Shown: positions 1,615 through 60,450 of the stretch, one piece after another | Position numbering within the stretch: position 1 is the first letter of the stretch | How the letters are laid out: each line of letters opens with the position of its first letter | NCBI GenBank assembly: GCA_000091205.1 | Contig: AP006491.2 | DNA: 64,000 bases | Direction: 5' to 3' (one strand) | From: Cyanidioschyzon merolae | Taxonomy: Eukaryota | The notes under the pieces: model-generated | Databases searched by the model: none | What the model saw: only the letters and a program-made list of their open reading frames with translations | What the model was told of the DNA's origin: nothing | Program-made: the position numbers and the translations under genes

Positions 1615-2652
1615 TCAGGGGCCTGAAAGTATCCAGATTCGAGCATGCGTGGCGGCTCGTGACTCTCGTAGACGACCAAGATGCCGAAAAACATTCATCA
1701 GCGCTCTGCCCGTAGTATCCTGCTTCAGTGATGCAAAGGACTTGATATCTGTCTCGGAGAAAAAGTAGTGCCCGCGAGTCTCGTCCGTTTCCATGTCCTC
1801 ATAGCGGCAGCGCTGATCAAGCTGCGCAGAAGTGAGCTCATGCTTTGGACGACGCAAAAGCGCATACTTATAACGCAAGATGCTCTCAATATCGCTGATC
1901 GCTCTATGCAGACGCTCTATGGTGACGCGTCCGCGTATGTGCCCCGGAACTTGCTGGAGCGTCTCCTCAGTCACTGGCTCGACGCGTGGAGCGGCGTCAA
2001 CCGCCGGCGCTGCTCGGGGAAACGAGTCTCGCTTCCGTGGAACAGGCGAGACACTGTCGTTTACCCTGCCAGTGGGTGCTCCTTCTGATCCAGGTGGCTG
2101 CTGCGCGCTCGGTGGTGAAGCGTCCTCCGTACCAGCGCAAGTGCGCCCGGCGCGTCGCCGCTGCTGGAGCGCCACCTGCAAACGACGCCACTGCTGCCGC
2201 TGCTCTCGTACTCGGCGACAAAGCTGCTTCATTTGTCCGGCATATCGCAAGTCCTCCTCTAGCGCCTCTTTCAGCCAGTAGAAGTGCGTCTCCGCTGCTT
2301 GGAGCTGCGCCTCGGTGGCGTACAAGTGCTCATCCAACGCTGGCACTGCCTCAGCTGAGCGCATCAGCGCCAACCACTTGAGAGTACGCACCCGCCGGAC
2401 AAGAGTCGCAGCATCGGCACCCAGTTGACTCCCAATACCGAGTAGTCGTTGCTCATCGGGATGACCCTCAACCGGGACCTCTGAGCGTTCCCCGCGAGTC
2501 GACAGCATATGCAAAAGGTCCGACACGCGCCAGGGATTTTGAATGTCGCGGCCGCAATGGACGGTGCTTTGTTCCAATGCCGCACACGTCGATGAAACAG
2601 TCGATGCTCCACGAGCACGCAGGGTATATGAATACCGACGTGCAGACGCCAA
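1615..2652 (-). CDS. SKA1: Spindle and kinetochore-associated protein 1 (SKA1)-like, with C-terminal microtubule-binding winged-helix region
   Basis: The 345-aa ORF has the C-terminal block IRGRVTIERLHRAISDIESILRYKYALLRRPKHELT...ETRGHYFFSETDIKSFASLKQDTTGRALMNVFRHLGRLRE. This aligns by eye to the human SKA1 C-terminus (MKSRLTYNQINDVIKEINKAVISKYKILHQPKK...DTKGRYFIVEADIKEFTTLKADKK...LNILRHCRRLSEVRGG). The N-terminal start is uncertain because the first ATG lies 6 bp from a transposon remnant. Confidence 0.6.
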   Translation of the reverse strand: MASARRYSYTLRARGASTVSSTCAALEQSTVHCGRDIQNPWRVSDLLHMLSTRGERSEVPVEGHPDEQRLLGIGSQLGADAATLVRRVRTLKWLALMRSAEAVPALDEHLYATEAQLQAAETHFYWLKEALEEDLRYAGQMKQLCRRVREQRQQWRRLQVALQQRRRAGRTCAGTEDASPPSAQQPPGSEGAPTGRVNDSVSPVPRKRDSFPRAAPAVDAAPRVEPVTEETLQQVPGHIRGRVTIERLHRAISDIESILRYKYALLRRPKHELTSAQLDQRCRYEDMETDETRGHYFFSETDIKSFASLKQDTTGRALMNVFRHLGRLRESRAATHARIWILSGP

Positions 2653-2657
2653 CCAGT

Positions 2658-2946
2658 CTATGTCGACCGGCCAGCTACTAGTAGCTCCAACTTCTCCTTA
2701 TACGCCTCGAGTATCAGAGGCTGCCCCATAAAGTTGGTTCGCGCCAGCTCCTCGGGTCTCTTCTCCAGCACTGCACATCCCCTGACATTGAAGGCGGCGT
2801 CGAAGTCCCGGTACACAAATACGATACGTTTCTTCCCGTTGTTTGCACTTACGAATGCAAGTAGGCCTCGATTTTGGGCGCTCCATTCCATTTGCTCCTA
2901 CGTCAGCGCTGCGAACTTTTCTACATGCGCAGGGCTCCGCTTGCAC
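2658..2946 (-). pseudogene. Fanzor/TnpB-like RuvC-III-containing C-terminal fragment (decayed copy a)
   Basis: The 77-aa ORF reads NNGKKRIVFVYRDFDAAFNVRGCAVLEKRPEELARTNFMGQPLILEAYKEKLELLVAGRST. It is colinear and clearly homologous with the C-terminus of the 298-aa ORF at 36367..37263 (NGKKRMEFVNRDFNAALNIRTCVVLQTRPPEWTRENFVGQPLKVELYEQKLEAVVGGRS). The D-x-N-A-A-x-N-[IV] motif is the TnpB/Cas12 RuvC-III signature. The DNA at 2870..3000 also aligns with 36760..36900. Confidence 0.6.
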
Positions 2947-3380
2947 TTCTCCGTCTCGACTTTCTGAGGTGTACGCCCCAGCTCATTCCTGATTTTCTTG
3001 AAACTGAATGTATTTGTTCAAGACTTTGGGTGAAGACCTCCCGAGAAAGAGAGAAGGGCTTGCGGAAGAGAGGCGAAATTTGCCCTGGTGTCTCATTGTG
3101 TGCTGAACGAATCAGCGGTTCGCCCAGTGGAGCGATCAGTACGTTTCACGATAGAGAACATTTCCTCGCAGAGGATGCGCCACGATGAGCATGTAGGAAT
3201 GAAAAGCATCTCTACCTCAATAGAATCGGTAAAGGCTCGAACGCAAGTGGAATGGTCAAATGCCAAGTTGTCCAATAGAAGGAACTTCGCCGGACGTCAG
3301 TGACAGGTCTTCAACGATTCGACAAAGCGGGTGGTGCTGTTGTACGGGCCTTCACTACGACCGAAACTAAGGCCGCAAAA

Positions 3381-4160
3381 TCACTCCGCTGCCTCTAGAA
3401 CAGATGATGTCGTTGGTCTCTTGGAGTTTGATTCTACATACATCTTGGTCCCTGCTCCGGGATTACTCATATCCGCTTTGACCGTTTCACCCGAGGCAAG
3501 TCTCATCGACCGAGAAAACAAACCGACGTCGCTGTGCTGTATACGGATCGCCGAGTTCCGGGAACTTTCTTGTAGTTGCGATTTCGATGGAAGATGGCCA
3601 TATGTGAACAAGGACTCTTTTTCCGACTGTATCCCAGTGGTTTCAGGACCACTCGAACCAGCTGCTAAGAAACAGAAACGCCCATGGTGGCTCCTATCAT
3701 CGTTTTGCGCTTTCCCTAAAGTGATCAACGGGTCGTTCTGTACCACTGACTGCAAGCGATCTCGAAGAATATCTGACTTTGGCGCGGGGCGCGTGATCTC
3801 CGTCCTCTCAGTGTCCCTTAGCCATCTGAGAACTGTGGTATGACTGACCTGAATGAGGAATGCAGTCCCTGTTGCACTGGTCAGTAACGCGTACGTATCC
3901 CACAGGCAATTCTTCCACGATCTATGCGGCACATTGCATCGAGATTTCGGTTTCTTTGTACTCACCGCAGCGGGGGTGAAATAATACTGAGTTGAAGGAC
4001 TTTTACGCTTCAAATACCATCTTGGATGGAAATATTCAAGCGTCATGCTGGAGGCTTCCACATCCGCATGGAGTTCGGGCCACGTGCCGTGAGACGCTCC
4101 CGTCTTTGCGGGGCCAGCACGCAAACGATTGCATAGAGCCTGTAGATGAAACCTCGGCAA
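3381..4160 (-). CDS. Hypothetical ORF inside the transposon remnant, possibly the decayed N-terminal part of the Fanzor or another element-encoded protein
   Basis: 259-aa ORF in a lower-GC island directly upstream of, and on the same strand as, the RuvC-III fragment. No confident domain assignment. Confidence 0.2.
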   Translation of the reverse strand: MPRFHLQALCNRLRAGPAKTGASHGTWPELHADVEASSMTLEYFHPRWYLKRKSPSTQYYFTPAAVSTKKPKSRCNVPHRSWKNCLWDTYALLTSATGTAFLIQVSHTTVLRWLRDTERTEITRPAPKSDILRDRLQSVVQNDPLITLGKAQNDDRSHHGRFCFLAAGSSGPETTGIQSEKESLFTYGHLPSKSQLQESSRNSAIRIQHSDVGLFSRSMRLASGETVKADMSNPGAGTKMYVESNSKRPTTSSVLEAAE

Positions 4161-5394
4161 ACGCGTGCAAAACGCTAATAAACCATGACAGTCGCCGCGG
4201 GTGGAAGTGCCTCAGCGTTCCAGCGACCCGCGAGGTGCCGAGTTCCTCGGAAGCGCTCGCCACGGCACCGGACACGTAGCGCCAGACGACGCGCGGCGTC
4301 AGCACCTCTAGGCGTTGCGTTTAGGGCCCTCGGCTCCATGCTGCACGATGCCCGTGCCGCACAGTGCGCTTCCTCGCCTGCTGCTGACGCCAGCGCTGGT
4401 GAAACAATGCCAGACATACCCACTCCGTGCCGTTACGTATTCGGTGCCCGCGGTGTTCACTGGTCAATGCATTCGATCTTCACAACAAAGCGGCTGCTGC
4501 GAATGCCAAAGGAACAGATCCAGCTTTGCACGCGACCCGTTCCGCTTGGTTGCCAATACGAGGAAACCGCTCAGGTCCGTGGCGCTGCACACTGCTAACG
4601 ATGCCTGGATGGTATGGAATGCGGGACGGCAATGCAGCCGCTTCGATAGAGTTTACATGCCCGATGCAGCTCGTACCTCAATTGATTCAGGCGCGGGGAA
4701 CCCAGGCTAGATGAATCCCTAATTGACTTCGGAATGCATCTCATTGTTCTCCAGGGGAGTTCCACGGTGTTCGTAGGAGAACGTATCGCCTCGCTGGCCG
4801 CACAGGAGCAATCCGCGGCGACTCCCCGTGCAGCTGATCCATGCTCGCCATCCAGCCTGCAATGATGGCATAAAGTGTTAGGTACCACGTTGTTTTTGGT
4901 GCGGTCTCGGTGCGAGATCGCGTTTACTCCTCTGAAACCCGGCTGTCTAGCCAACTGCGAACATTCGGCATGATCGTTCACAGGTGCTACCAAAATTCCG
5001 GCATGCGCGACGCATGTACTGTATAGGCAGCTGGCTTTCGGAAATCATCTTGCGTTTTGGAGCAGTAAGCATCGCACTCGGCCTCGGATAGAGACTGGGA
5101 ACGCTGGCATCGATACCGAATGAACAAATGGCAGCGTGCAGTCGAACACGACTGCTTCATACAAAACAGTCGATCGAACCGCACACAGAGCACACACAGA
5201 CGAGTCAAGAACGTATCGACTAGACCAGGGCGCCGGTTCCCATACACGCTGCAAGCACAGCATCGCACCCGCGGCAGACAGCTATTACAGGGTATCTCGC
5301 GCCAATGACCAGGCCACAGACCGGTGTGCAGCGCGGAATTCAGCAAGCCTGGCGGCCTTCTCATGCGTGTGGACAAAGTCGGCGGGGTTTGGAT

Positions 5395-6177
5395 TCACGC
5401 TTGGCGCCCAGCAAGCTGATCCGTGCTCTCCATCTGGACCCAAGCCTTGAAGCGTCGCCGCATCTGTGCCACAAACGCTCCGAAATCATTCGTTCGGTTC
5501 AGCGTTTCCACCATTTGTGCGAGACGTACATTCGCTGCTCCGGCCGTTGGCTTCATTACATCAATGTCAGGAACGCAGTCCTCGACTCGGAATAAATCTG
5601 CGTCCTCATCTACATACACTGTAAAAGCAAACTCGCGATCCGGCGCCCGCGAATCGATGTGTCGGAAAATCACGCGAACCTTGCCGTCAACACGCCCGGC
5701 CTCGGTCGCCGAGGCAGCGCCAACTCTCTGAAACCGCAGCCCCAGTCTATCTCGGTACCAAACAAGCGCCTTCTGGAGATGCAGCAGACGCGTGCGCCGT
5801 GCCTCTTCGCACGCATTCAAGAGCGCTCGACGGCGCTCAAACTCCTGCCGGCGCTCAGCGATCTCCTGCTCGAGTTCCTGCTGCCTCACCGGTAGCGCAG
5901 CGGCCCGTGCCTCGAGTTGCGCTATTCCACGCTCGAGGGCGTCCAGCTCCTCACGCTCTGCCTCTAAACGCTCCTGCAATCGTGCCGCTGCTGCCTCGAA
6001 TTGCGTGCGCCGCTGTACCAATGTCTCCGTTTCCCGTGACACCCGCGCCGTTGTCTCCTGCCAGGTCCGCTGTACCTCTTCCAGATTGCTCAAACGTCCT
6101 CTTGCCCAAACCTCAAACTGTGTCCTAGCGTGATGAAGGTTTTCATCGAGATGTCTCAAGTCTACAGTATCCATCAA
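5395..6177 (-). CDS. SPC25: Kinetochore protein Spc25 (Ndc80 complex subunit), with N-terminal coiled coil and C-terminal RWD domain
   Basis: The C-terminal block is YRDRLGLRFQRV...KVRVIFRHIDSRAPDREFAFTVYVDEDADLFRVEDCVPDIDVM...LNRTNDFGAFVAQMRRRFKAWV. Human SPC25 has LGLEIRKI...[37 protein letters not shown]...VRKTNNFSAFLANVRKAFT. The N-terminal half is Glu/Arg/Leu-rich coiled coil. Confidence 0.7.
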   Translation of the reverse strand: MMDTVDLRHLDENLHHARTQFEVWARGRLSNLEEVQRTWQETTARVSRETETLVQRRTQFEAAAARLQERLEAEREELDALERGIAQLEARAAALPVRQQELEQEIAERRQEFERRRALLNACEEARRTRLLHLQKALVWYRDRLGLRFQRVGAASATEAGRVDGKVRVIFRHIDSRAPDREFAFTVYVDEDADLFRVEDCVPDIDVMKPTAGAANVRLAQMVETLNRTNDFGAFVAQMRRRFKAWVQMESTDQLAGRQA

Positions 6178-34049: not shown

Positions 34050-36419
34050 TCAACGATTCTCGGCAGGTCCTTGACGCCGCATGTGGCGCTCGTAGTAGAA
34101 TTGCGCAAAGGTAGGCAGCACTCGAGAGGAGACCACGGATGAAAGCGAACCTCCAGGTTCCGGATGCGTACACGACGCACCCGATGCCTGGCGGAAGACC
34201 AGCGTTAGCTCATTTAGGAGCGTTTCGTAGCGGTAGCGAACACGAATAGATGGAACATTGGACTTGTGGATATCGTTCCCCTGGTCATTGGTGAGAAACC
34301 AGCGCGGTCCGAGCCAGTGCGCCTTCACACAGGGCTCGAAACCGCTCTGTAGCGCAGAGTTTCGCGCCAGTTCACAGAGATCCGAACTGCTCAGTTTCCA
34401 TATCTGAGCGGCTACCGAGTACTCTTCCATGAGCGGCTCGCGAGAGAAATGGAACATAAGTGGATCATCGGTGCTGAGGCTCACATTCAGCCCGCGTGCA
34501 ATAAACACTGGTACCGGTGACTTGGTGTAATCGACGAATAGCAGGTTATTGCCCAGCGGAGAGACAGCGAGACCCACTTGGCACAGGTAGTAGAGGTACT
34601 GCAGCACGGGTGCTTTTTTCAAGTTAATCCCGTGATTAATACCGTGCGCGAGGAGAAACGTCACTGCCAGGTGATCGATTTCGCCGGCTTCACCAGCATG
34701 TGGGCGGAATCGAAAGGTATGCAGGCCTCGATGCTCGCGAAACCTGTTCAAAACCCATAAATTAGCGTAGATGTAGTAGGTGAAGTATGCATAGGGCATC
34801 GGTGCTGAGGTACGCCACGCTAGCGGCGGTGGCAAGGTCAACAAGTCGATGCGTGGCTGCGGTACACTCTCGTCGTCAACGGTGTCGAAGCCTACAATCT
34901 GTTGCAGAACTGTGTGCAGCTCCGGATGCGTTGATGGATCTTGCGTGACCTCAAATAGCGGGAAGAAAATATTGTTCAACATTTCCTGAAAGGATTCCAG
35001 CAACCCTGCTTCGTGGTAGGCGCCGAACAAACGCGGAATCTGGATCAACCATCGGGCGTGATCCGAGTAGATTCGATGCTTGGTGAACCAGCGAGCAAGA
35101 CGATCCCACTCGCATCGTTTTTTGCCGTATATCGAGATTCGGGGCTCGATATGGGAGTACTTGCTCTCTACAAGATCATCGAGGACCTCGCGGGTGATTT
35201 CCGCCAGAAATCGGCCTTCGATAAAGTTGTCCGTTTTCAGAAACACTTCCCGAAGACGAGATTCTCCCAGCGGGGAATACTTGTTATTGAAGCGGTCAAA
35301 GCGCTGCACGGTACGCTTATCCGCGTGCACGTCGAGCGTGTCCACCGACAGCTCATACGCCGTGATGCCGAGGGAGTCGAACACCCCGGCCAGCGTCAGA
35401 ACGCGGCCATCGCGCTCAATCACTGGGGTGTTCGGCTCGGTCTTGAGTTTCTTCTTAATAAATCGGAGCAGGTGCTTCTGGTTCATACAGGAGCTGTGAT
35501 GAATATGCGTGTCAACCTTGCGGACATTATAAAAGTCTCGATGCGGCACTGTCATCTGCTCTAGCCGCTCTGCTTCATCGTTGAGTAGCAGATGCATTTG
35601 AAAGCGCAGAGAGAGTAGTTGCAGACGCCTGTAGCAGAACGAGCGGGAGTCGGGATCGTTCATGATCCCGATCAGCGTGTTCAGATCGTGCACGAAAAGC
35701 GCATAGGAGCCAGGAACAACGAACTTGCACGGTTCGCGGCTTGTCTCGGTTGCCGGTCTTGTGACCTCCATGATGCCATCACGAACTTCGAACGCGTAAT
35801 CGCCCTTCGCCAGGGCTGGCCCTCGAAAAGGATCATACGGTGGCGGGACGTGGATACTCAGGTCACAGTCGCGGTACGGAGGTGCCGGGTTCGCATACTC
35901 TGGGACTTCAGGTAGGTAGAGGTATTTCTCGCGGAGGGCGATAGCGTTTCGGAGCAGTGCACATACCCTGCGCTCGTCGGCGTTTAACTCGACCTCGTTC
36001 GTGATGAGTACTCGCTGAAAACCTCGCTCTGTAACCGCAGATCGGAGTGAGCGGAAGGCTTGCCCAAGTTCTCGCCGGAGTTCAAGCGTCTGTAACGCAG
36101 TCAGGGTCGCCTCGTCTACCGAGGCCGTGTTGTGCACGAGTTGGGTTCCGTCGCTACGGTCACCTGAAGTGGAGGCTTCTTGCGCTCGCAGAGGATCGGT
36201 AACAGGAACCAGCAGCGCGTCCCGTGCCCTCTCGTCGGAGCGCTCACCAGCTGCCACCGACGATTGAACTAGACGACGCCAGTGAGGAGACAGGGCGCGC
36301 TGTGCAAGAACCGGTTCGGCATCCTCCTGTTCAAGGTCATGAATCCAAACGAGCTTGCCACTATCTCTACCAAATGGTTCCATGAGCGTGCACGTGCTCC
36401 AGTTCCCCGACACCGTCAC
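34050..36419 (-). CDS. AMPD: AMP deaminase
   Basis: 789 aa. It has the metal-binding motif VDTHIHHSSCMNQKHLLRFIK, SLSTDDPLMFHFSREPLMEEYSVAAQIWKLSSSDLCELARNS, and a long central block colinear with AMPD/Amd1. Start is either Met1 (36419) or Met13 (36383); Met1 overlaps the tail of the Fanzor ORF. Confidence 0.9.
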   Translation of the reverse strand: MTVSGNWSTCTLMEPFGRDSGKLVWIHDLEQEDAEPVLAQRALSPHWRRLVQSSVAAGERSDERARDALLVPVTDPLRAQEASTSGDRSDGTQLVHNTASVDEATLTALQTLELRRELGQAFRSLRSAVTERGFQRVLITNEVELNADERRVCALLRNAIALREKYLYLPEVPEYANPAPPYRDCDLSIHVPPPYDPFRGPALAKGDYAFEVRDGIMEVTRPATETSREPCKFVVPGSYALFVHDLNTLIGIMNDPDSRSFCYRRLQLLSLRFQMHLLLNDEAERLEQMTVPHRDFYNVRKVDTHIHHSSCMNQKHLLRFIKKKLKTEPNTPVIERDGRVLTLAGVFDSLGITAYELSVDTLDVHADKRTVQRFDRFNNKYSPLGESRLREVFLKTDNFIEGRFLAEITREVLDDLVESKYSHIEPRISIYGKKRCEWDRLARWFTKHRIYSDHARWLIQIPRLFGAYHEAGLLESFQEMLNNIFFPLFEVTQDPSTHPELHTVLQQIVGFDTVDDESVPQPRIDLLTLPPPLAWRTSAPMPYAYFTYYIYANLWVLNRFREHRGLHTFRFRPHAGEAGEIDHLAVTFLLAHGINHGINLKKAPVLQYLYYLCQVGLAVSPLGNNLLFVDYTKSPVPVFIARGLNVSLSTDDPLMFHFSREPLMEEYSVAAQIWKLSSSDLCELARNSALQSGFEPCVKAHWLGPRWFLTNDQGNDIHKSNVPSIRVRYRYETLLNELTLVFRQASGASCTHPEPGGSLSSVVSSRVLPTFAQFYYERHMRRQGPAENR

Positions 36420-37263
36420 ACAACAAACGCCGGTCTAAAGTCGAATGTCGCCTGCACTGTACAGTACCGGCGAGAAATTCGCCCCGGACAAGACGTCTCC
36501 AAATTATTCGCGGACGCCTCCCCGTGGTTCTCGACCGGCCACCTACTACTGCTTCCAACTTTTGCTCATATAATTCCACTTTGAGAGGTTGCCCCACAAA
36601 ATTCTCTCTTGTCCACTCTGGAGGTCTAGTCTGCAGCACTACACATGTCCTTATATTGAGAGCTGCATTAAAGTCTCGGTTCACAAACTCCATGCGTTTC
36701 TTACCGTTGGTTGTTATGCTAACCAATGCAAGGAGTCCTCGAACTTGTGCCCTCCTTTCCATCTGCTCTTCCGTCAGCTGTCCGTACTTTTTTATATCCT
36801 CAGGGCTCCTCTGGCACTTTTCCATCTCGACCCTTTGAAGTGTGCACCCCAGTTCATGATGTGTATACGATGTCCGGAACTCATCTATGGGTATCGTAAC
36901 GAAACGTTGTGCGCACTCCTTGTACGTTCGTGTCGTTGGAGCTGGCGTAGTCCTTTTTTGGGTCTTCCAGCGCCCTGCTCTGTATGCTTCTACCAGCCTC
37001 TGACTTTCATCCTCCTTCAAAGCGTTCAACTGATTGAAAACGTTCGCGAACGCGCGCCGCTTCCCACAATACAGATTCATACGCAGACTAGCCCACCGGG
37101 GCTTTGTATACTCCTCCCACAGTGCATCCCAATGCGCAACGCGAGCTTCCATGAATTTCCGGAAAGCTTCAAAGTCCGCTCCGCGGACCGTCACCTCGCT
37201 CAAAGCTTCCAGGTGCTCCTTCACCCCTGCATTCCATCTCTCAACTTTCTTCCTTGCATTCAC
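36367..37263 (-). CDS. Fanzor/TnpB-like nuclease, C-terminal half (RuvC-II region, zinc finger, RuvC-III), the most intact copy (copy c)
   Basis: 298-aa ORF. The segment ...AQRFVTIPIDEFRTSYTHHELGCTLQRVEMEKCQ... follows the TnpB pattern G..V..V.E.YTS..C..CG (RuvC-II Glu followed by the zinc finger). NRDFNAALNIRTC is the RuvC-III D-x-N-A-A-x-N-I signature. By comparison with copy a, which stops after ...VAGRST, the native stop is probably near 36520, and the last 50 or so codons are fortuitous read-through. Confidence 0.7.
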   Translation of the reverse strand: MNARKKVERWNAGVKEHLEALSEVTVRGADFEAFRKFMEARVAHWDALWEEYTKPRWASLRMNLYCGKRRAFANVFNQLNALKEDESQRLVEAYRAGRWKTQKRTTPAPTTRTYKECAQRFVTIPIDEFRTSYTHHELGCTLQRVEMEKCQRSPEDIKKYGQLTEEQMERRAQVRGLLALVSITTNGKKRMEFVNRDFNAALNIRTCVVLQTRPPEWTRENFVGQPLKVELYEQKLEAVVGGRSRTTGRRPRIIWRRLVRGEFLAGTVQCRRHSTLDRRLLCDGVGELEHVHAHGTIW

Positions 37264-40000
37264 AATACCGGATTCTCGATAGCATCTCGATCTCGAGAAA
37301 TCTCAAAAGACGCATATCTTTCTGGCGCACGTTACCGTCAATGCCATCTTCCGCACGCTTCGGTTCAGCGACGGGTATGATATTCGTGTGTCCGGGGTCC
37401 GCGCCAATGACAACGTCGTTATCCTCTACCTCCTGCGCGGCAGGACCCGGCTCCTTCTCATCTTCTTGTTTCGCCGCACCAACGATAACGTCGTTATCCT
37501 CTACCTCCTGCGTCGCAGGATCCGCCACCTTTTTTTCTTCATGCTTCGCCGAAGCGCAACTGAGGACGGAACTGGACGATCCACCTTCAAGCGCCGATAG
37601 TGTACGCACATGGCTACTCCATCGGTTTCGATCATCCCAGTGAGTACCTTTTGGTTGCTCGTCTAGACACGTATGAAATCGAAGGTATTCGTCCAATGCA
37701 ATTCCCGGTTTTCGCCCGTTAACTCCTTATCGCTGACATCGAACTCCGGACTGATCTTCTCCATGATGCTGTAAAGGACTCCGGAGTCGATTGAGACAGA
37801 GTGCGGCTTGATGTTGCACAACGGAACGACGTTGAAGCGCTTACCCATTAGGAAAGCCTTCCGTTCCTCCAACCCCGTCATTTCGTTTCCTGACTCAGCT
37901 TCATCTCCGCATTGCGTTCGAGTTCTCGGTTCAGGAGCATGAAATAGCGCAGGATGAGGGATACCATTTTTTTCATCTTTTTTCGTATATGATACGTTTT
38001 CTGCTGGATTTGACAAGCCCCATGACTGCACGGTGCTCTTGAATAGCCGCACGGATCAAAGTAGCTTCATACTTTCTCCCGCGTGATATCTTCTTGACGA
38101 CGAATTCGATCTCCTGTCCATTCTGGCGATCGCTCGTGATGCCATTGATGATGGTCCATATCCCCTGGCGGGAGAGGCCCAGGTACGTTGCAAAAACGGC
38201 GCATATCATGAAGCGTTTGAGTTTCATGGTCATACGATTCTTCAGGTTCGTGAGGTACTTGATCGTCCCGTATGAGTTAATATCTGCGACACTCTTGTAT
38301 AGAGTACCGTCGAAGCGGTATTCGGGGTGATTTTCGTGGACGGCATGCACTCTCTCATTTCTCCTCGACGCTTCCCCTGTGCCAAGCATCAGGTGGCGAA
38401 TAAAAGTCTTGTTGAAAAATTCTCTCGGAACCTCGAATGTTTTGATGTCCGTCATATCGCGATACATCTCCCTCGCCATATGCATCAGTTCAGAAGAAGT
38501 CTTTATAATTCTCAAGGAGTACGACTCGACACGGTTTCTGATGGCCTCTCGTAACTTTTTTTGTATGGATCCTTGGTATACTTTAGAAGACAGGCTTTCG
38601 CTACCATCTCATCTTACTGTCGCCTTCGTGCAGCTCCTTCATCTTCGCCTGCTCCTCTGGACTCGGCAATGTTTTTCGTTTTTCTCTGGCAGCTGGCGAC
38701 ACCGACCCTTCGAAATCCTCCACTTCCATATCAATGACTTGCTTATATTTTTTGGAAAAGAACGCACTATGAACGCTTCTGCTGGAAAGCGCGAAAACCC
38801 ACTGAGCACACTAAACTGAGGTTTGAAAAACGATCGGATTCAAAGACTATACTTTGCTATGACTTGAACGCGAATACATCTTGGACGCTATCGTAACACG
38901 CTGATGCCGCGATGCCATGCCGTTTTCGTGCATGCGACAAGTCCCCGGCAACAGTGCACGCTCCGAATGCCGCATCGCGTGTTTCCAGTCAAGTCTACGA
39001 ATAAGAAGGATGGCGCTTCCATTCGACGGCTACATGCGCTTCTTGTCTCATTTTTTGTCTGACAAACCGTTTACATTTACCATGGATCCTAGATTGCGGG
39101 ATGGGTATTGGCTTTCGGGAAAGTGTCCATCATGCTGTACCCTACGTCAAATGTCTATGACCTGTTCTCGGATATACTGGTTATTTCGCACATTCTGTTG
39201 TGCGCCGACTACCTGCTCCGAGCGCCGCCCCCTGCAGCGCGCACACTGCTGGTACGGATGCAGTATGGAAGCAGCACGGCTTTGGGATGCCGCTGAGCGC
39301 GTCAGCTCGAAGCGCTGTTCACCTACAACGGGGTCGGAGTGCATAATCATTCTGGGAGCCTGCAAACCGCGCAGGTAGAGCTTCTGCGTGCGGCAATGCG
39401 ATGCGATATACTAGGAGTCCAGTGCAACCGGGGCGACGCCCAGACGCAGCCTACCTGCCCCTAGTCCCAGAGTGAATTGCGTTGCGGACGAGCTGCACAG
39501 ATGTCACTACAGCACCCGCCACTGCAGAGGAATACGGAGCAAAAACTCCGGTGGACTCGTCCAGCTCGCGGGATCTTCCGCCTAGAAAATAATCTTTTGA
39601 AAAAACGGAAAGTTTTCCCCCTTTCGAACGCTGACGATGCAGTTCGAACGAAATTGTTATCAAGTTGCTATTTCATGGTTGGTTTCTATCCCTTTTTCCA
39701 TAGCGCGGTCGATACCCGAACTTGGGATCGCCTCGGCATGCGAACGGTGGCATCGGGAACCGCTGGCCTGTGTAGACATTTTGTCAAATAAAAAACACAA
39801 ACGCTCCCTGGATCCTTCGAAATCCAATTCCCGATACAAATACTTGTTCGACTGCGGTGCATTGCAGTACTTGCTTGCAAGGAGCATTCGTTACTTTCCG
39901 AGACGCTTCCAGTAACCGCGCGACCGGTGATTCTGGTAAGGTGCATCGGGTGCTGACCCTGAATACCCGGACCCCCGCGCGAATGGCCAGGTGCTGGCAG
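36420..40000 (-). mobile_element. Fanzor-bearing transposon (copy c), lower-GC island; boundaries approximate
   Basis: GC content drops visibly between about 36500 and 40500. Consecutive minus-strand ORFs in shifted frames (37241..37696, 37663..38052, 37973..38515) lie upstream of the RuvC ORF, indicating introns or decay of the N-terminal half. It carries modules repeated elsewhere in the window: 39330..39800 matches 47860..48290, and 39050..39140 matches 60330..60440 (reverse complement). It also has a tandem peptide repeat, QEVEDNDV(I/V)(V/I)GA. Confidence 0.5.
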
Positions 40001-47301: not shown

Positions 47302-47859
47302 GTCGAACGCGAGTTCAGGTCACTCCCTGAAGTGGGCAGTATACAGAACTCCAAAAATACCGGCCACTGTGGTTGCACGCGGTTACGCTACTCCCGCTCC
47401 ACTCTACTACCAAAGCGCAAAGCCAACTACTCTTCAGTCTTGACTTGCTTCTCAAGTAACGTCAGTGCACCGTGCCTTGCGCTTGTCCAGGGAACGTACC
47501 AAGCTCTCGCAGAAGTGTATCGCCCGTTGGGCTCGTGGCAGGAGCGCGCACGCGCACACGGCATCGATGTTTTTCCGATGACCAAATTCGTGTCCATGGA
47601 CCAGGGATCCCAGATTGTGAGATGGGTATTCGTAATTGAAAAAGCGTCCATGATGATGCACTTTACCTTCAAGTTCCATTCCTTGGCCTTCAGCTCGGAT
47701 ATACTGGTCGTTTTGTAGGTTATATTGTGTGTCAAGTGCATGCCTTGGAGCATCCACAACAGAGCCGAAACCGCTGGAGCAGATATTTCATAGAGGCAGG
47801 ACCGGATTTGCCACACCATTGACTACTTCGACTCGGGGCTTGGATCATCCGACACAGGG

Positions 47860-49960
47860 TCGGTATACACGATCATTCTGGGAGCCTGCAAATTTCGCAG
47901 ACAGACCTACTGTGTCCGACTGCGCGAAGCGATATACTACAAGTCCACTGCGACCAGGGCGATGCCCAGACGCAACATCGGCGCTCCGAGTCCCAGAATA
48001 CACTGCGTTGCGGCCGAGTTGGTCAGATCTCACTAACGCAACAGCCACAGGAGAGAGCACGAAGCACCAGCCCGGCAGACTTGTCCGGTTCGCGGGATCT
48101 TCCACCTCTAAGGTAAAGTTTCGACAAAAAGGAAACCATTTCCCCTTCTTCATGTTTGCCGTAGAGGGGCAAAGAACTCGTTCTATCGTTGCTCGTTCGT
48201 GGATAGTTTCTGATCTTTTTTCTGTGCAGTGCGGTCGATATGCGCACCTGGGAGATCTAGCACGCTCGAGGCACGACGCGCATCGACAAGTGCCACTGGC
48301 GGTGCGGCTTCATTCCATGCGCGCGTGCTGCACCGAGTTACTGGTATCGATGACCCGAGTTCGATTCTTTCATACGACACGACACGTCATCCTCTGAGGC
48401 GTACGGGGGTTTCACGCCAGCTTCCCTTTGCATCAAGGCAAGGTCAGGTGCGTATATTGTGATTCTTTCTAAATCGTATCAGGGCAGATGCACGGTGCCT
48501 GCTCCATTTTTTCACATGCAGATGGTTACCGCATCTTGAAACGGACACGTCCAAGTTTTCCAAGTGGCGTCCATACGCCCGCAATTTCGAGCGAGCAGCG
48601 AACGAACCCGCCACGGCAAGCGCTCTGGTACCACCCGCTCGATTCAGCGGTATCCAGACCAGAGCGATTCGGAGTTGAACGACAAAGACCTAGACATCAA
48701 GGCGCATCCCATAGAATAGTGTCAGATGAATATGGAACACTGAGTTGCTCGCTCCTTTCCTGAATTTCGCTCATTATCCGAAGATTTTCAGATGTTCTGC
48801 CTCGGCATTTGAATAGTTTCAAGAACGGCTTGCGCATTCATATGTAGTTCTTGGATTCTCGGTCGTTTGCACGGGGCAGGTCCAACGAAGCAACGCAGCT
48901 GGAATGAATTACCTTGCCGGAATCAAAATGCTTCGCGACGCCCTCAGACAAGCATTGGTAAAATAACCGATATCATCATCCAATTCATACGTACAAGAAT
49001 CCGCGCTTCTTTCCTGACGTGAAGCATGTTAGGGCCATGCATGCTTCAAGTTTTCCGACTCTCTATTTCACGACAACTCATGGGCGGAGCCATTTGCGCC
49101 CCCGAATGAACGACGAAAAATCACAGTCGGTGTCATCTCTCGACGACTTGTTCATGAATGCATGTTGGAAGGTCACTGAACGTTTCATAGCAAATAATCG
49201 ATTCTATTCGAAGCACAAACCTTCCTCTCCTTGTGGCCGACGACGGAATGGCATTCGAGCGCAGCAGCTTTATACCGGTCACATGAGATGCCTCCACATG
49301 CCCCCGTCGGTTCTGTTTGCGTGGAAAAGAGTTGCATCCTCGGACTTTAGTGATCGCAGCGATCGCTTCTATTTTAGGGTGCGTCAACGAGTCGCGAGTG
49401 GAGAGCTTAGACGGTTCAAATTTCTGGATTTGATCTTAAGCCAGGATTTTCCTTCCGGTACTTGATTCGTCATGAACAACATCGCGTTCCACAAATCCTC
49501 TACCGAATGGGCGAGCGTTCACTTGCGTGTGCAGCGGACTGGGTACTCGCCGACGGGATTGCCCAGAGGAAGCCCGCGTTCGTCGGGCACGACACCGGGT
49601 GCGGAATCCGAAGAAGCCACTGAGCTTAGCCTTCTGTGCCCGTCAAGGGCATGTACCGGGCGATGATGCAAGCGTTTGCGTGCCACAAGACGGCGCTCGG
49701 ACGAGCAGCTCTGCTGGCGGTCTCCAGGAACACGTGACAGCGGTCAAAAGTCACTTCTGCGATGCGAGAACCGATACTGTATAGAATAAAACGAGGAAAT
49801 GAGCACATCAAGCATAGATTGCAGCTTCCATCAGTTTGTGCAATGCACCGACAGCTGCCGAAAGTTGCAAACCGGGACCTGAACGCTGTCATCAATATTC
49901 TTCGGCTGCTGGAACGTACTCGGAGGCAAAGGGGAGACAGACGAACGCAAAGCCCTTGAC
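47860..49960 (+). mobile_element. Degenerate Fanzor-bearing transposon remnant (copy d); boundaries approximate
   Basis: 47860..48290 is homologous to 39330..39800. The shared stretches are cattctgggagcctgcaaa, gcgatatactac, cagggcgatgcccagacgcaac and tcccagaatacactgcgttgcggccgag. 48800..49560 is homologous to 18900..19650. The 49019..49465 ORF holds a decayed zinc-finger region (QQLYTGHMRC, compared with EFRTSYTHHELGC). The 49762..49959 ORF holds NRDLNAVINILRL, the RuvC-III motif. A lower-GC island. Confidence 0.5.
49762..49959 (+). pseudogene. Fanzor/TnpB-like RuvC-III fragment of copy d
   Basis: The 65-aa ORF contains KVANRDLNAVINILRLLERT, the third independent occurrence in this window of the D-x-N-A-A-x-N-I motif. 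The upstream protein context is missing. Confidence 0.5.
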
Positions 49961-60249: not shown

Positions 60250-60450
60250 CCCAGTTACGCTCACGTCCCCAGTACCGAGCTACCTGTGGAACGTCCAACG
60301 TTCCAAGCATTTCTGTGAGGAAGTATAGATGGTTGCCGGTGGACCTTGACGGTGGGATGAGATATGATTGACGCTTTCCCGAAACTCAACACCCACCCGT
60401 CTCGCAAGCTGGGATCCATGGTCCATGGAAACGTTTTTTCATCGGAAAAA
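60250..60450 (-). mobile_element. Short fragment of the same transposon family (copy e)
   Basis: The reverse complement of 60330..60440 (cgtttccatggaccatggatcccagcttgcgagacgggtgggtgttgagtttcgggaaagcgtcaatcat) aligns with 39050..39140 of copy c (cgtttacatttaccatggatcctagattgcgggatgggtattggctttcgggaaagtgtccatcat). The encoded peptides are FPWTMDPSLRDGWVLSFGK and FTFTMDPRLRDGYWLSGK. Confidence 0.45.

What the first reader, a model, noticed from the sequence alone, without database searches (positions are those of the whole stretch)
2650..4200. Second, decayed copy of the same Fanzor element abutting the SKA1 start codon
A 77-aa ORF (2658..2891) ends in the same RuvC-III block (YRDFDAAFNV...FMGQPLILEAYKEKLELLVAGRST) as copy c. 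About 130 bp of DNA (2870..3000) is alignable to 36760..36900. The fragment stops 6 bp before the annotated SKA1 ATG on the same strand, so either the SKA1 start or its 5' UTR and promoter now lies inside transposon-derived sequence. Two unlinked copies of the RuvC-III motif within 35 kb show this is a multicopy mobile family, not a domesticated single gene.
Basis: seen in the sequence. Interest (0 to 1): 0.6.

Follow-up and report, generated by a model that had tools for sequence, protein, structure and literature searches.

The report
Dead Fanzor transposon fragment upstream of SKA1
This is a roughly 350-400 bp dead remnant of the already described Fanzor1 (CMe-1A-type) transposon family of the red alga Cyanidioschyzon merolae, lying 75-125 bp upstream of the real SKA1 start codon rather than against it, so it is an ordinary genomic fossil.

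Summary
The core observation holds. A 77-aa ORF (2658..2891, minus strand) carries a RuvC-III-like block. Window 2642..2986 aligns to 36510..36857 at 72% identity over 348 bp (E 2e-49).

The window is Cyanidioschyzon merolae 10D. The repeat family is Fanzor1, shown by profile hits and by fold hits to solved Fanzor1 structures. It fits the published CMe-1A family (Bao and Jurka 2013: about 150 copies, about 3 kb).

Three parts of the finding are wrong.
- **Extent.** Only 2634..2986 is Fanzor-derived, plus a variant tail to about 2584. No Fanzor protein homology exists in 2991..5500.
- **Content.** The piece is the last ~115 codons, with an in-frame TAG. RuvC-I and RuvC-II are missing, and so is the family's usual 3' terminal ~110 nt.
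- **Position.** The SKA1 start is the ATG at 2508, which matches the annotated 297-aa protein and the orthologue N-termini. The codon at 2652 is a TTG. The gap to the fragment is 75-149 nt, not 6 bp.

Window 3026..3968 is a separate non-coding repeat. The same repeat-plus-fragment arrangement recurs on another C. merolae chromosome.

The fragment is most likely inert. A role in the SKA1 promoter or 5' UTR is possible but untested. Low interest; already known kind.

The parts
2634..2986 (-). Core Fanzor1-derived fragment. It covers the last ~115 codons of a CMe-1-type Fanzor1 gene (after RuvC-II, including RuvC-III YRDFDAAFNV) plus about 25 nt past the stop.
   Evidence: 72% identity over 348 bp to 36510..36857. 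73-75% identity to 85 family loci, with a sharp 5' edge at 2986. Family profile E 2.9e-40 over 2631..2990. 23.6% diverged from the family consensus.
2658..2891 (-). The 77-aa residual ORF inside the fragment, with its TAG stop at 2658..2660. An in-frame TAG at 2898..2900 closes the frame upstream.
   Evidence: Not present in the NCBI annotation and called only by metagenome pipelines. Five population variants differ at 3 sites, all amino-acid changing.
2584..2633 (-). Variant 3' tail. It is unlike the main family tail but is shared with other solo fragments (L038/L070 8770..8816, weakly L016). It marks the probable 3' limit of the repeat-derived DNA.
3026..3968 (-). Non-coding repeat lying directly 5' (in element orientation) of the fragment. 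It is 70% identical to L016 7130..8072, where a decayed Fanzor 3' fragment follows it in the same order.
   Evidence: No consistent reading frame in tblastx. The 259-aa ORF at 3381..4160 has no homologue apart from its own population variants. L016 is C. merolae DNA from a different chromosome and holds no SKA1.
1615..2508 (-). SKA1 coding sequence (297 aa, ATG at 2508..2506), the gene downstream of the fragment on the same strand.
   Evidence: Pfam PF07160 E 3.3e-36. Exact match to BAM79991.1/XP_005536277.1. Orthologue N-termini align at this Met.
5395..6177 (-). Spc25-like gene, the upstream neighbour. The Spc25-SKA1 spacer is about 2.9 kb here, against 0.5-1.0 kb in sister cyanidiophytes.
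   Evidence: tblastx 68% identity to the Spc25 genes of L084-L086. PF08234 on the called genes. No Fanzor homology in the relatives' spacers.
36420..39750 (-). Reference near-full-length copy ('copy c') of the CMe-1A-type Fanzor1 element. It is broken by frameshifts. Its 3' end lies about 36 bp upstream of the AMP deaminase ATG (36383).
   Evidence: ORFs in alternating frames. Family coverage profile. Profile hits in frames -0 and -2. 3' end read from alignments. AMP deaminase is an exact match to BAM80004.1.
47589..48253 (-). Solo copy of the 5' ~660 bp module of copy c (39068..39727). This matches the published description of TE-N2_CMe.
   Evidence: 68% identity over 671 bp. PMC3627910.

Best explanation
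The feature is an inert relic: an old fragment of a Fanzor1 (TnpB-like, RNA-guided nuclease) transposon of the CMe-1 group in Cyanidioschyzon merolae 10D, truncated at both ends. It keeps only the last ~115 codons (2634..2986), including the RuvC-III aspartate motif, and a short variant tail to about 2584. It lacks RuvC-I, RuvC-II and the N-terminal domains. It also lacks the ~110-nt conserved terminal region where Fanzor guide RNAs normally lie. It therefore cannot encode a nuclease and is unlikely to encode a working guide RNA.

It forms a composite repeat together with a ~940-bp non-coding sequence (3026..3968). The composite also occurs on another chromosome, so it spread or duplicated as a unit long ago; the two copies are about 70% identical. 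Its presence, with other unexplained sequence, has stretched the Spc25-SKA1 spacer from about 0.5-1 kb to 2.9 kb.

Shown: the homology, the truncations, the family membership, the SKA1 start and the second composite copy. Inferred: the lack of function, and the order of events.
For: Homology and edges. In-frame stop. Organism and exact protein matches.

The family is Fanzor1. Profile A8 hits PpFz 9cf0 (E 9.5e-20), SpuFz 8gkh (E 1.9e-12) and GtFz 9cer (E 6.8e-6), with the DPG, DEFRT and NRD..NAA..NI motifs aligned. An AF2 model with pLDDT 83 has the Fanzor1 structures as its top Foldseek hits, E 2e-12 to 1e-8, followed by Cas12.

The published CMe-1A description fits: about 150 copies, about 80% identity to consensus, about 3 kb, and a 5' 635 bp shared with TE-N2_CMe (compared).

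The fragment is 23.6% diverged, with a weak codon-position bias of 29/16/33. Family members average 10.9% divergence with strong third-position bias, 625/548/1257.

The main-family 3' tail is absent after GGCGTCTGCACGTCGGT. The fragment's tail region folds no better than shuffles at a convincing level (z -1.8).

The composite repeat is seen again in L016, which is C. merolae DNA from another chromosome without SKA1. The site is empty in sister species.
Against: No expression data were available, so absence of function is an inference. The fragment is retained at 98.8% identity in environmental C. merolae-like populations, but that is expected from recent common ancestry. The codon-position pattern (second positions least changed, p about 0.05 by my chi-square on the counts) shows that part of the divergence arose while the sequence was still coding. 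It may therefore descend from a distinct, formerly active subfamily rather than from the same element as copy c.
Confidence: 0.82

Rival explanations
1. The fragment has been co-opted as part of the SKA1 promoter or 5' UTR. Transcription of SKA1 would start in, or be driven by, the Fanzor-derived DNA 75-480 bp upstream of the ATG.
For: The fragment has the same orientation as SKA1, and only about 75 bp of unique DNA lies between the repeat tail (about 2584) and the ATG at 2508. In sister species the whole Spc25-SKA1 spacer is 0.5-1.0 kb without this sequence, so upstream control sequences must have been displaced or replaced. Copy c likewise ends about 36 bp before the AMP deaminase ATG. In 23 of 36 de-duplicated family loci the next long ORF downstream is co-oriented, with a median distance of about 94 bp.
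Against: No transcript-start data were available. The orientation bias is not significant (23 vs 13, p 0.13). In a compact genome almost any intergenic insertion is near a start codon. A core promoter could fit in the 75 bp of unique DNA.
Confidence: 0.12
2. The fragment is a solo guide-RNA (omega RNA / fRNA) locus. It would keep the RNA scaffold at the Fanzor 3' end and supply a guide in trans to intact Fanzor1 proteins encoded elsewhere.
For: Fanzor guide RNAs derive from the ORF 3' end and the adjacent non-coding right end, and solo fRNA copies are reported in Chlamydomonas (PMC10530073). The family's 3' region has a consensus that folds well (-52.9 kcal/mol, z -2.7), with a 12-bp long-range helix and a terminal hairpin. 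The fragment covers the 5' part of that region.
Against: The fragment diverges from the family right after GGCGTCTGCACGTCGGT. It therefore lacks the 3' partner of the long-range helix and the terminal hairpin. Its own fold is not distinctive (z -1.8). Covariation support for the family structure is itself not significant: pairs with double changes number 9 against 9.6 in shuffles. Divergence is 24%. Rfam finds nothing.
Confidence: 0.03
3. The 77-aa ORF is a domesticated micro-protein retaining the C-terminal RuvC-III segment of Fanzor.
For: The ORF is intact at 77 aa in five population variants, and the RD of RuvC-III is retained.
Against: It lacks two of the three catalytic motifs and every other domain. 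An upstream in-frame stop shows the frame is broken. All 3 variable sites change the amino acid. The substitution pattern is close to neutral. It is not annotated in the reference genome.
Confidence: 0.02

Closest known systems
CMe-1A, the Fanzor1-encoding repeat family of Cyanidioschyzon merolae (Bao and Jurka 2013, Mob DNA 4:12, PMC3627910)
   Same: Same host genome. The Fanzor1 protein family is confirmed by profile and by fold. The family is multicopy and about 80% identical to its consensus. The full element is about 3.3 kb, with a 5' ~650 bp module that also exists as a solo repeat (TE-N2_CMe). No terminal inverted repeats are evident.
   Different: The fragment at 2634..2986 is only the 3' tenth of such an element and is twice as diverged as typical members (24% vs 11%). 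Its tail (2584..2633) differs from the main family's. It is joined to an unrelated 940-bp non-coding repeat instead of the Fanzor N-terminal coding region. I could not compare it with the Repbase consensus itself.
Solved Fanzor1 nucleases: SpuFz (8GKH), PpFz (9CF0), GtFz (9CER)
   Same: The parent family shares the fold and the RuvC-I, RuvC-II and RuvC-III motifs with these RNA-guided DNA endonucleases.
   Different: Sequence identity is 12-19%. The region between RuvC-II and RuvC-III in the C. merolae family has only two Cys and two His rather than an obvious CxxC...CxxC zinc finger (my reading of the sequences). The fragment retains only the RuvC-III end.
Solo fRNA / omega RNA copies, such as the 20 extra fRNA copies in Chlamydomonas reinhardtii (Jiang et al. 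2023, PMC10530073)
   Same: A 3'-terminal piece of a Fanzor element persists without the nuclease gene.
   Different: Those copies are highly conserved and keep the whole RNA scaffold. This fragment is strongly diverged and lacks the terminal ~110 nt.
Ordinary truncated transposon relics in promoters of host genes
   Same: It lies a short distance upstream of a co-oriented housekeeping gene and is absent from sister species.
   Different: Nothing distinguishes it from that class with the data available.

Membership tests
Fanzor1 (eukaryotic TnpB-like RNA-guided nuclease), parent family and copy c | Sequence-profile similarity to experimentally characterised Fanzor1 proteins | tested here: met
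   Profile A8 matches PDB entries PpFz 9cf0 (E 9.5e-20), SpuFz 8gkh (E 1.9e-12) and GtFz 9cer (E 6.8e-6). Pfam alone finds nothing. Two distant relatives give sub-threshold PF07282 hits.
Fanzor1 (eukaryotic TnpB-like RNA-guided nuclease), parent family and copy c | Fanzor/TnpB fold (WED/REC plus split RuvC) | tested here: met
   AF2 model of P0003 has pLDDT 83.3 and pTM 0.80. The top seven Foldseek PDB hits are all Fanzor1 structures (E 2e-12 to 1e-8, TM 0.50-0.58), followed by Cas12 proteins.
Fanzor1 (eukaryotic TnpB-like RNA-guided nuclease), parent family and copy c | RuvC-I (DPG), RuvC-II (DEFRTS) and RuvC-III (NRDxNAAxNI) catalytic motifs | tested here: met
   GADPGHTN, IDEFRTS and NRDFNAALNI are present in the copy c ORFs. 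They align to the corresponding motifs of PpFz and SpuFz.
Fanzor1, the fragment at 2634..2986 itself | Complete RuvC triad and N-terminal domains | tested here: not met
   Only profile positions 323-443 of 447 are found, in one frame. Nothing else is found in 2401..5500 in any frame. The 5' edge at 2986 falls just after the RuvC-II motif. The fragment is therefore Fanzor1-derived but is not a Fanzor1 gene.
Fanzor1 / OMEGA systems | Structured guide RNA encoded at the 3' end of the ORF and the adjacent transposon end | tested here: inconclusive
   The family consensus folds at -52.9 kcal/mol, z -2.7. 84.6% of cells are paired, against 37-55% when partners are slid, but double-sided changes are not above shuffles. 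RNAalifold with default scoring gives no structure. The fragment lacks the distal half.
CMe-1A repeat family of C. merolae (Bao and Jurka 2013) | Host C. merolae; about 3 kb; about 80% identity to consensus; 5' ~635 bp shared with TE-N2_CMe; many copies | tested here: met
   Met for copy c: host, length and copy coverage, identity of 78-84% to other copies, and the 5' module also found solo at 47589..48253. The description comes from PMC3627910. The Repbase consensus was not available for direct alignment.
CMe-1A repeat family of C. merolae (Bao and Jurka 2013) | The fragment belongs to the same subfamily as copy c | tested here: inconclusive
   It is 72-75% identical to every family member examined, with none closer. 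It has a different 3' tail, shared only with other solo fragments, and a different 5' partner sequence. This points to a divergent sub-lineage or a derivative element.
SKA1 (spindle and kinetochore-associated protein 1) | Pfam SKA1 domain, with the start codon supported by orthologues | tested here: met
   PF07160 E 3.3e-36. Met at 2508 aligns with Met1 of the Cyanidiococcus orthologue and of a second cyanidiophyte orthologue. Exact match to the 297-aa annotated protein.

The most novel reading that the evidence does not exclude
The fragment may not be a random remnant. It could be the 3' module of an undescribed non-autonomous derivative element: a ~940-bp non-coding body plus a Fanzor 3' end with its own variant tail. 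Such an element would be mobilised in trans by CMe-1 Fanzor elements and would have landed just upstream of SKA1. CMe-1-type elements in general may insert a few tens of bp upstream of co-oriented start codons, so that their 3' ends supply promoter or 5' UTR sequence to host genes.
Probability: 0.1. Interest if true: 0.45.

Novelty: already known. Interest (0 to 1): 0.15.

Why it matters
It matters little. It documents one more fossil of a transposon family described in this genome in 2013. It also corrects a mis-assigned start codon: metagenome gene callers extend SKA1 upstream into repeat-derived DNA, giving 320- and 345-aa versions. The only wider points are modest. A 0.5-1 kb kinetochore-gene spacer has been tripled by repeat insertions in an otherwise very compact genome. 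The Fanzor1 elements of this alga also often end very close to co-oriented start codons, which could be examined genome-wide with existing RNA-seq data.

Tried and rejected
- Pfam scans of the fragment ORF, the copy c ORFs, five family proteins and a 747-aa near-intact member gave no hits.
- A PDB profile search with a shallow family-only alignment gave only noise. It worked only after adding distant relatives.
- The first AF2 model, built on the shallow alignment, was unusable at pLDDT 43.
- Rfam gathering-threshold and tRNA scans of the whole window found nothing.
- An exact-protein look-up of a 973-aa window ORF was not on record.
- RNAalifold with default scoring gave no consensus structure for the family 3' end. 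A ribosum-scored structure exists, but its covariation is not above controls. I therefore do not claim a proven guide RNA.
- A protein search with the 259-aa ORF at 3381..4160 found only its own population variants, so I treat it as a chance ORF in a non-coding repeat.
- I considered that L016 might be the orthologous SKA1 locus. I rejected this because it holds no SKA1 and its transporter gene is an exact C. merolae 10D gene on a different chromosome.
- The orientation bias of family 3' ends towards co-oriented genes was suggestive at a lax ORF cut-off (31 vs 14). It was not significant after de-duplication and stricter cut-offs (23 vs 13, p 0.13; 18 vs 11, p 0.26).
- A literature search for C. 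merolae transcript-start data yielded nothing usable for SKA1.
Full report
**Source of the window.** The 297-aa protein read from the ATG at 2508 to the stop at 1615 (minus strand) is identical to Cyanidioschyzon merolae 10D BAM79991.1/XP_005536277.1, which UniRef names 'Spindle and kinetochore-associated protein 1'. The 777-aa AMP deaminase at 34050..36383 is identical to BAM80004.1. Both lie on an 810,151-bp record. The window has 57% G+C and long intronless ORFs, as expected for this compact red-algal genome. Hot-spring metagenome contigs L001, L082 and L083 are 98.8-99.1% identical to parts of the window.

**Checking the observation.** The 77-aa ORF at 2658..2891 (minus) exists as quoted. 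BLASTN aligns window 2642..2986 with 36510..36857 at 72.1% identity over 348 bp, E 1.8e-49 (alignment). Against 85 related loci fetched from metagenomes, the match has a sharp 5' edge at 2986 in 76 alignments and ends at 2633-2644.

In the coding frame the fragment reads ...NELGRTPQKVETEKCKRSPAHVEKFAALT*EQMEWSAQNRGLLAFVSANNGKKRIVFVYRDFDAAFNV...VAGRST*. It is therefore the last ~115 codons of the gene. The frame is interrupted by a TAG at 2898..2900, and the homology begins immediately after the position of the RuvC-II motif (IDEFRTSYTHH|ELG in copy c).

A protein profile of the family detects only 2631..2990 in the whole 2401..5500 stretch (E 2.9e-40). It finds nothing of the N-terminal, RuvC-I or RuvC-II regions in any frame. 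The proposed 2650..4200 extent is therefore not supported.

**The SKA1 start.** The first ATG is at 2508..2506. Two orthologues begin at exactly that Met: P0123 from Cyanidiococcus yangmingshanensis and P0122 from a second cyanidiophyte, both 57-59% identical. The reference annotation begins there as well. The Pfam SKA1 domain is clear (E 3.3e-36). Metagenome gene callers produced 320- and 345-aa versions that run upstream into the repeat; these are artefacts. The ORF's stop is 149 nt from the true ATG, and the main homology edge is 125 nt from it.

**What the family is.** Pfam does not recognise these proteins, and a shallow family profile finds nothing in the PDB. An exhaustive HMMER search with the family alignment found 1,252 relatives, many of 600-700 aa. 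A profile built from the family plus 54 of those relatives hits the solved Fanzor1 nucleases:
- Parasitella parasitica 9cf0, E 9.5e-20
- Spizellomyces punctatus 8gkh, E 1.9e-12
- Guillardia theta 9cer, E 6.8e-6

The DPG(R), DEFRT and NRD..NAA..NI motifs are aligned in these hits. An AlphaFold model of family member P0003 made with that alignment is confident (pLDDT 83, pTM 0.80). Its best Foldseek matches in the PDB are those same Fanzor1 structures (E 2e-12 to 1e-8), followed by Cas12 proteins. The family is Fanzor1.

It also fits the published description of CMe-1A in C. merolae: about 150 copies, about 80% identical to the consensus, about 3 kb, no TIRs, TSDs undetermined, and a 5' 635 bp shared with a separate repeat, TE-N2_CMe (PMC3627910). 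In this window copy c spans about 36420..39750, and its coding region is split over alternating frames. Its 5' ~660 bp (39068..39727) recurs alone at 47589..48253. Other copies are 76-84% identical to it.

**How the fragment differs from a typical family copy.** It is 72-75% identical to every family member, and none is closer. It is 23.6% diverged from the family consensus, against a family mean of 10.9%. Its differences are spread 29/16/33 over codon positions, whereas the family as a whole shows 625/548/1257, a clear signature of protein-level selection. The fragment therefore diverged partly as a coding sequence and then decayed.

At its 3' end it follows the family only as far as GGCGTCTGCACGTCGGT. 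The family's last ~110 nt are replaced by a different tail. That tail, to about 2584, is shared with another solo fragment in L038/L070 and, more weakly, with one in L016.

Directly 5' of the fragment, 3026..3968 is 70% identical to L016 7130..8072. There is no consistent reading frame between the two. The 259-aa ORF in this stretch has no homologue other than its own population variants.

In L016 the repeat is followed, colinearly, by a decayed Fanzor 3' fragment. L016 carries a transporter gene identical to C. merolae BAM79507.1 on a 536-kb record and holds no SKA1. The composite therefore exists at two or more unlinked sites in this genome.

**Context.** Gene order Spc25 - SKA1 - EF-G-like is conserved in two sister cyanidiophytes. 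There the Spc25-SKA1 spacer is 492 and 1,017 bp and contains no Fanzor homology. In C. merolae it is about 2.9 kb, running from 2509 to about 5394.

**Guide RNA question.** Fanzor guide RNAs come from the ORF 3' end and the adjacent transposon end (PMC10530073). The family's terminal ~130 nt has a consensus that folds into a long-range 12-bp helix enclosing hairpins, plus a terminal hairpin (-52.9 kcal/mol, z -2.7). Counting on 51 copies gives 84.6% paired cells, against 37-55% for slid partners, but double-sided changes are no more frequent than in shuffles. Default RNAalifold gives no structure. I regard a family guide RNA as likely from precedent but not demonstrated here. The fragment lacks the distal half of that region, and its own fold is unremarkable (z -1.8).

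**Verdict.** The fragment is an old relic of a known transposon family, truncated at both ends. It cannot make a nuclease and probably cannot make a guide RNA. The 77-aa ORF is unannotated in the reference genome, and its three population polymorphisms all change the amino acid. A contribution to the SKA1 promoter or 5' UTR remains possible, because only about 75 bp of unique DNA separates the repeat tail from the ATG, but it is untested.

Noticed in passing
window 36383..36425, and family loci L002-L081: The 3' end of copy c lies about 36 bp upstream of the co-oriented AMP deaminase ATG. Across de-duplicated family loci the next long ORF downstream is co-oriented in 23 of 36 cases (p 0.13), with start codons at a median of about 94 bp from the element end. 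Opposite-strand neighbours are at a median of about 613 bp.
   Followed up: partly
window 36420..36560 (-) and alignment A7 of 51 family 3' ends: The last ~130 nt of the Fanzor1 elements have a consensus that folds into a 12-bp long-range helix (CAGUAGU.GGUGG with UCGCCACUACUG), inner hairpins and a terminal hairpin. The terminal hairpin comes in two sequence variants (CGUUCGA/UCGAACG and GUUUUUC/GAAAGAC). This is a candidate guide-RNA scaffold, but covariation statistics were not significant.
   Followed up: partly
window 47589..48253 (-) and 60364..60441 (+): These are solo copies of the 5' ~660 bp module of copy c (68% and 78% identity), matching the published TE-N2_CMe repeat.
   Followed up: partly
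window 37399..37551 (-): Copy c has a tandem ~75-bp duplication (83% identical units) encoding an acidic ~25-aa repeat (..EEKKVADPATQEVEDNDVIVGA..) just before the RuvC-I motif. Family proteins carry from one to about five such units (for example P0029 and P0096).
   Followed up: no
window 2509..2652 (-): The SKA1 reading frame stays open for 48 codons upstream of the true ATG, across the repeat tail. Prokaryote-style gene callers on metagenomes therefore output 320- and 345-aa SKA1 versions starting at non-ATG codons.
   Followed up: yes
window 3969..5394: About 1.4 kb of the enlarged Spc25-SKA1 spacer has no detectable similarity to the Fanzor family, to the L016 repeat, to the rest of the window or to the sister species' spacers. 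Its origin is unexplained.
   Followed up: partly
family proteins, region between RuvC-II and RuvC-III (e.g. copy c 36700..36880): Where TnpB and Fanzor proteins usually have a CxxC...CxxC zinc finger, this family has only HH..C and a single further C (YTHHELGCTLQRVEMEKCQ). The zinc-binding site may be degenerate or of a different type.
   Followed up: no
loci L001-L083 (JGI hot-spring metagenomes): Several metagenome assemblies contain contigs 98.8-99.1% identical to the C. merolae 10D reference, or carrying proteins identical to it. These include the transposon insertions at the same sites, so these insertions are fixed across the sampled populations.
   Followed up: partly
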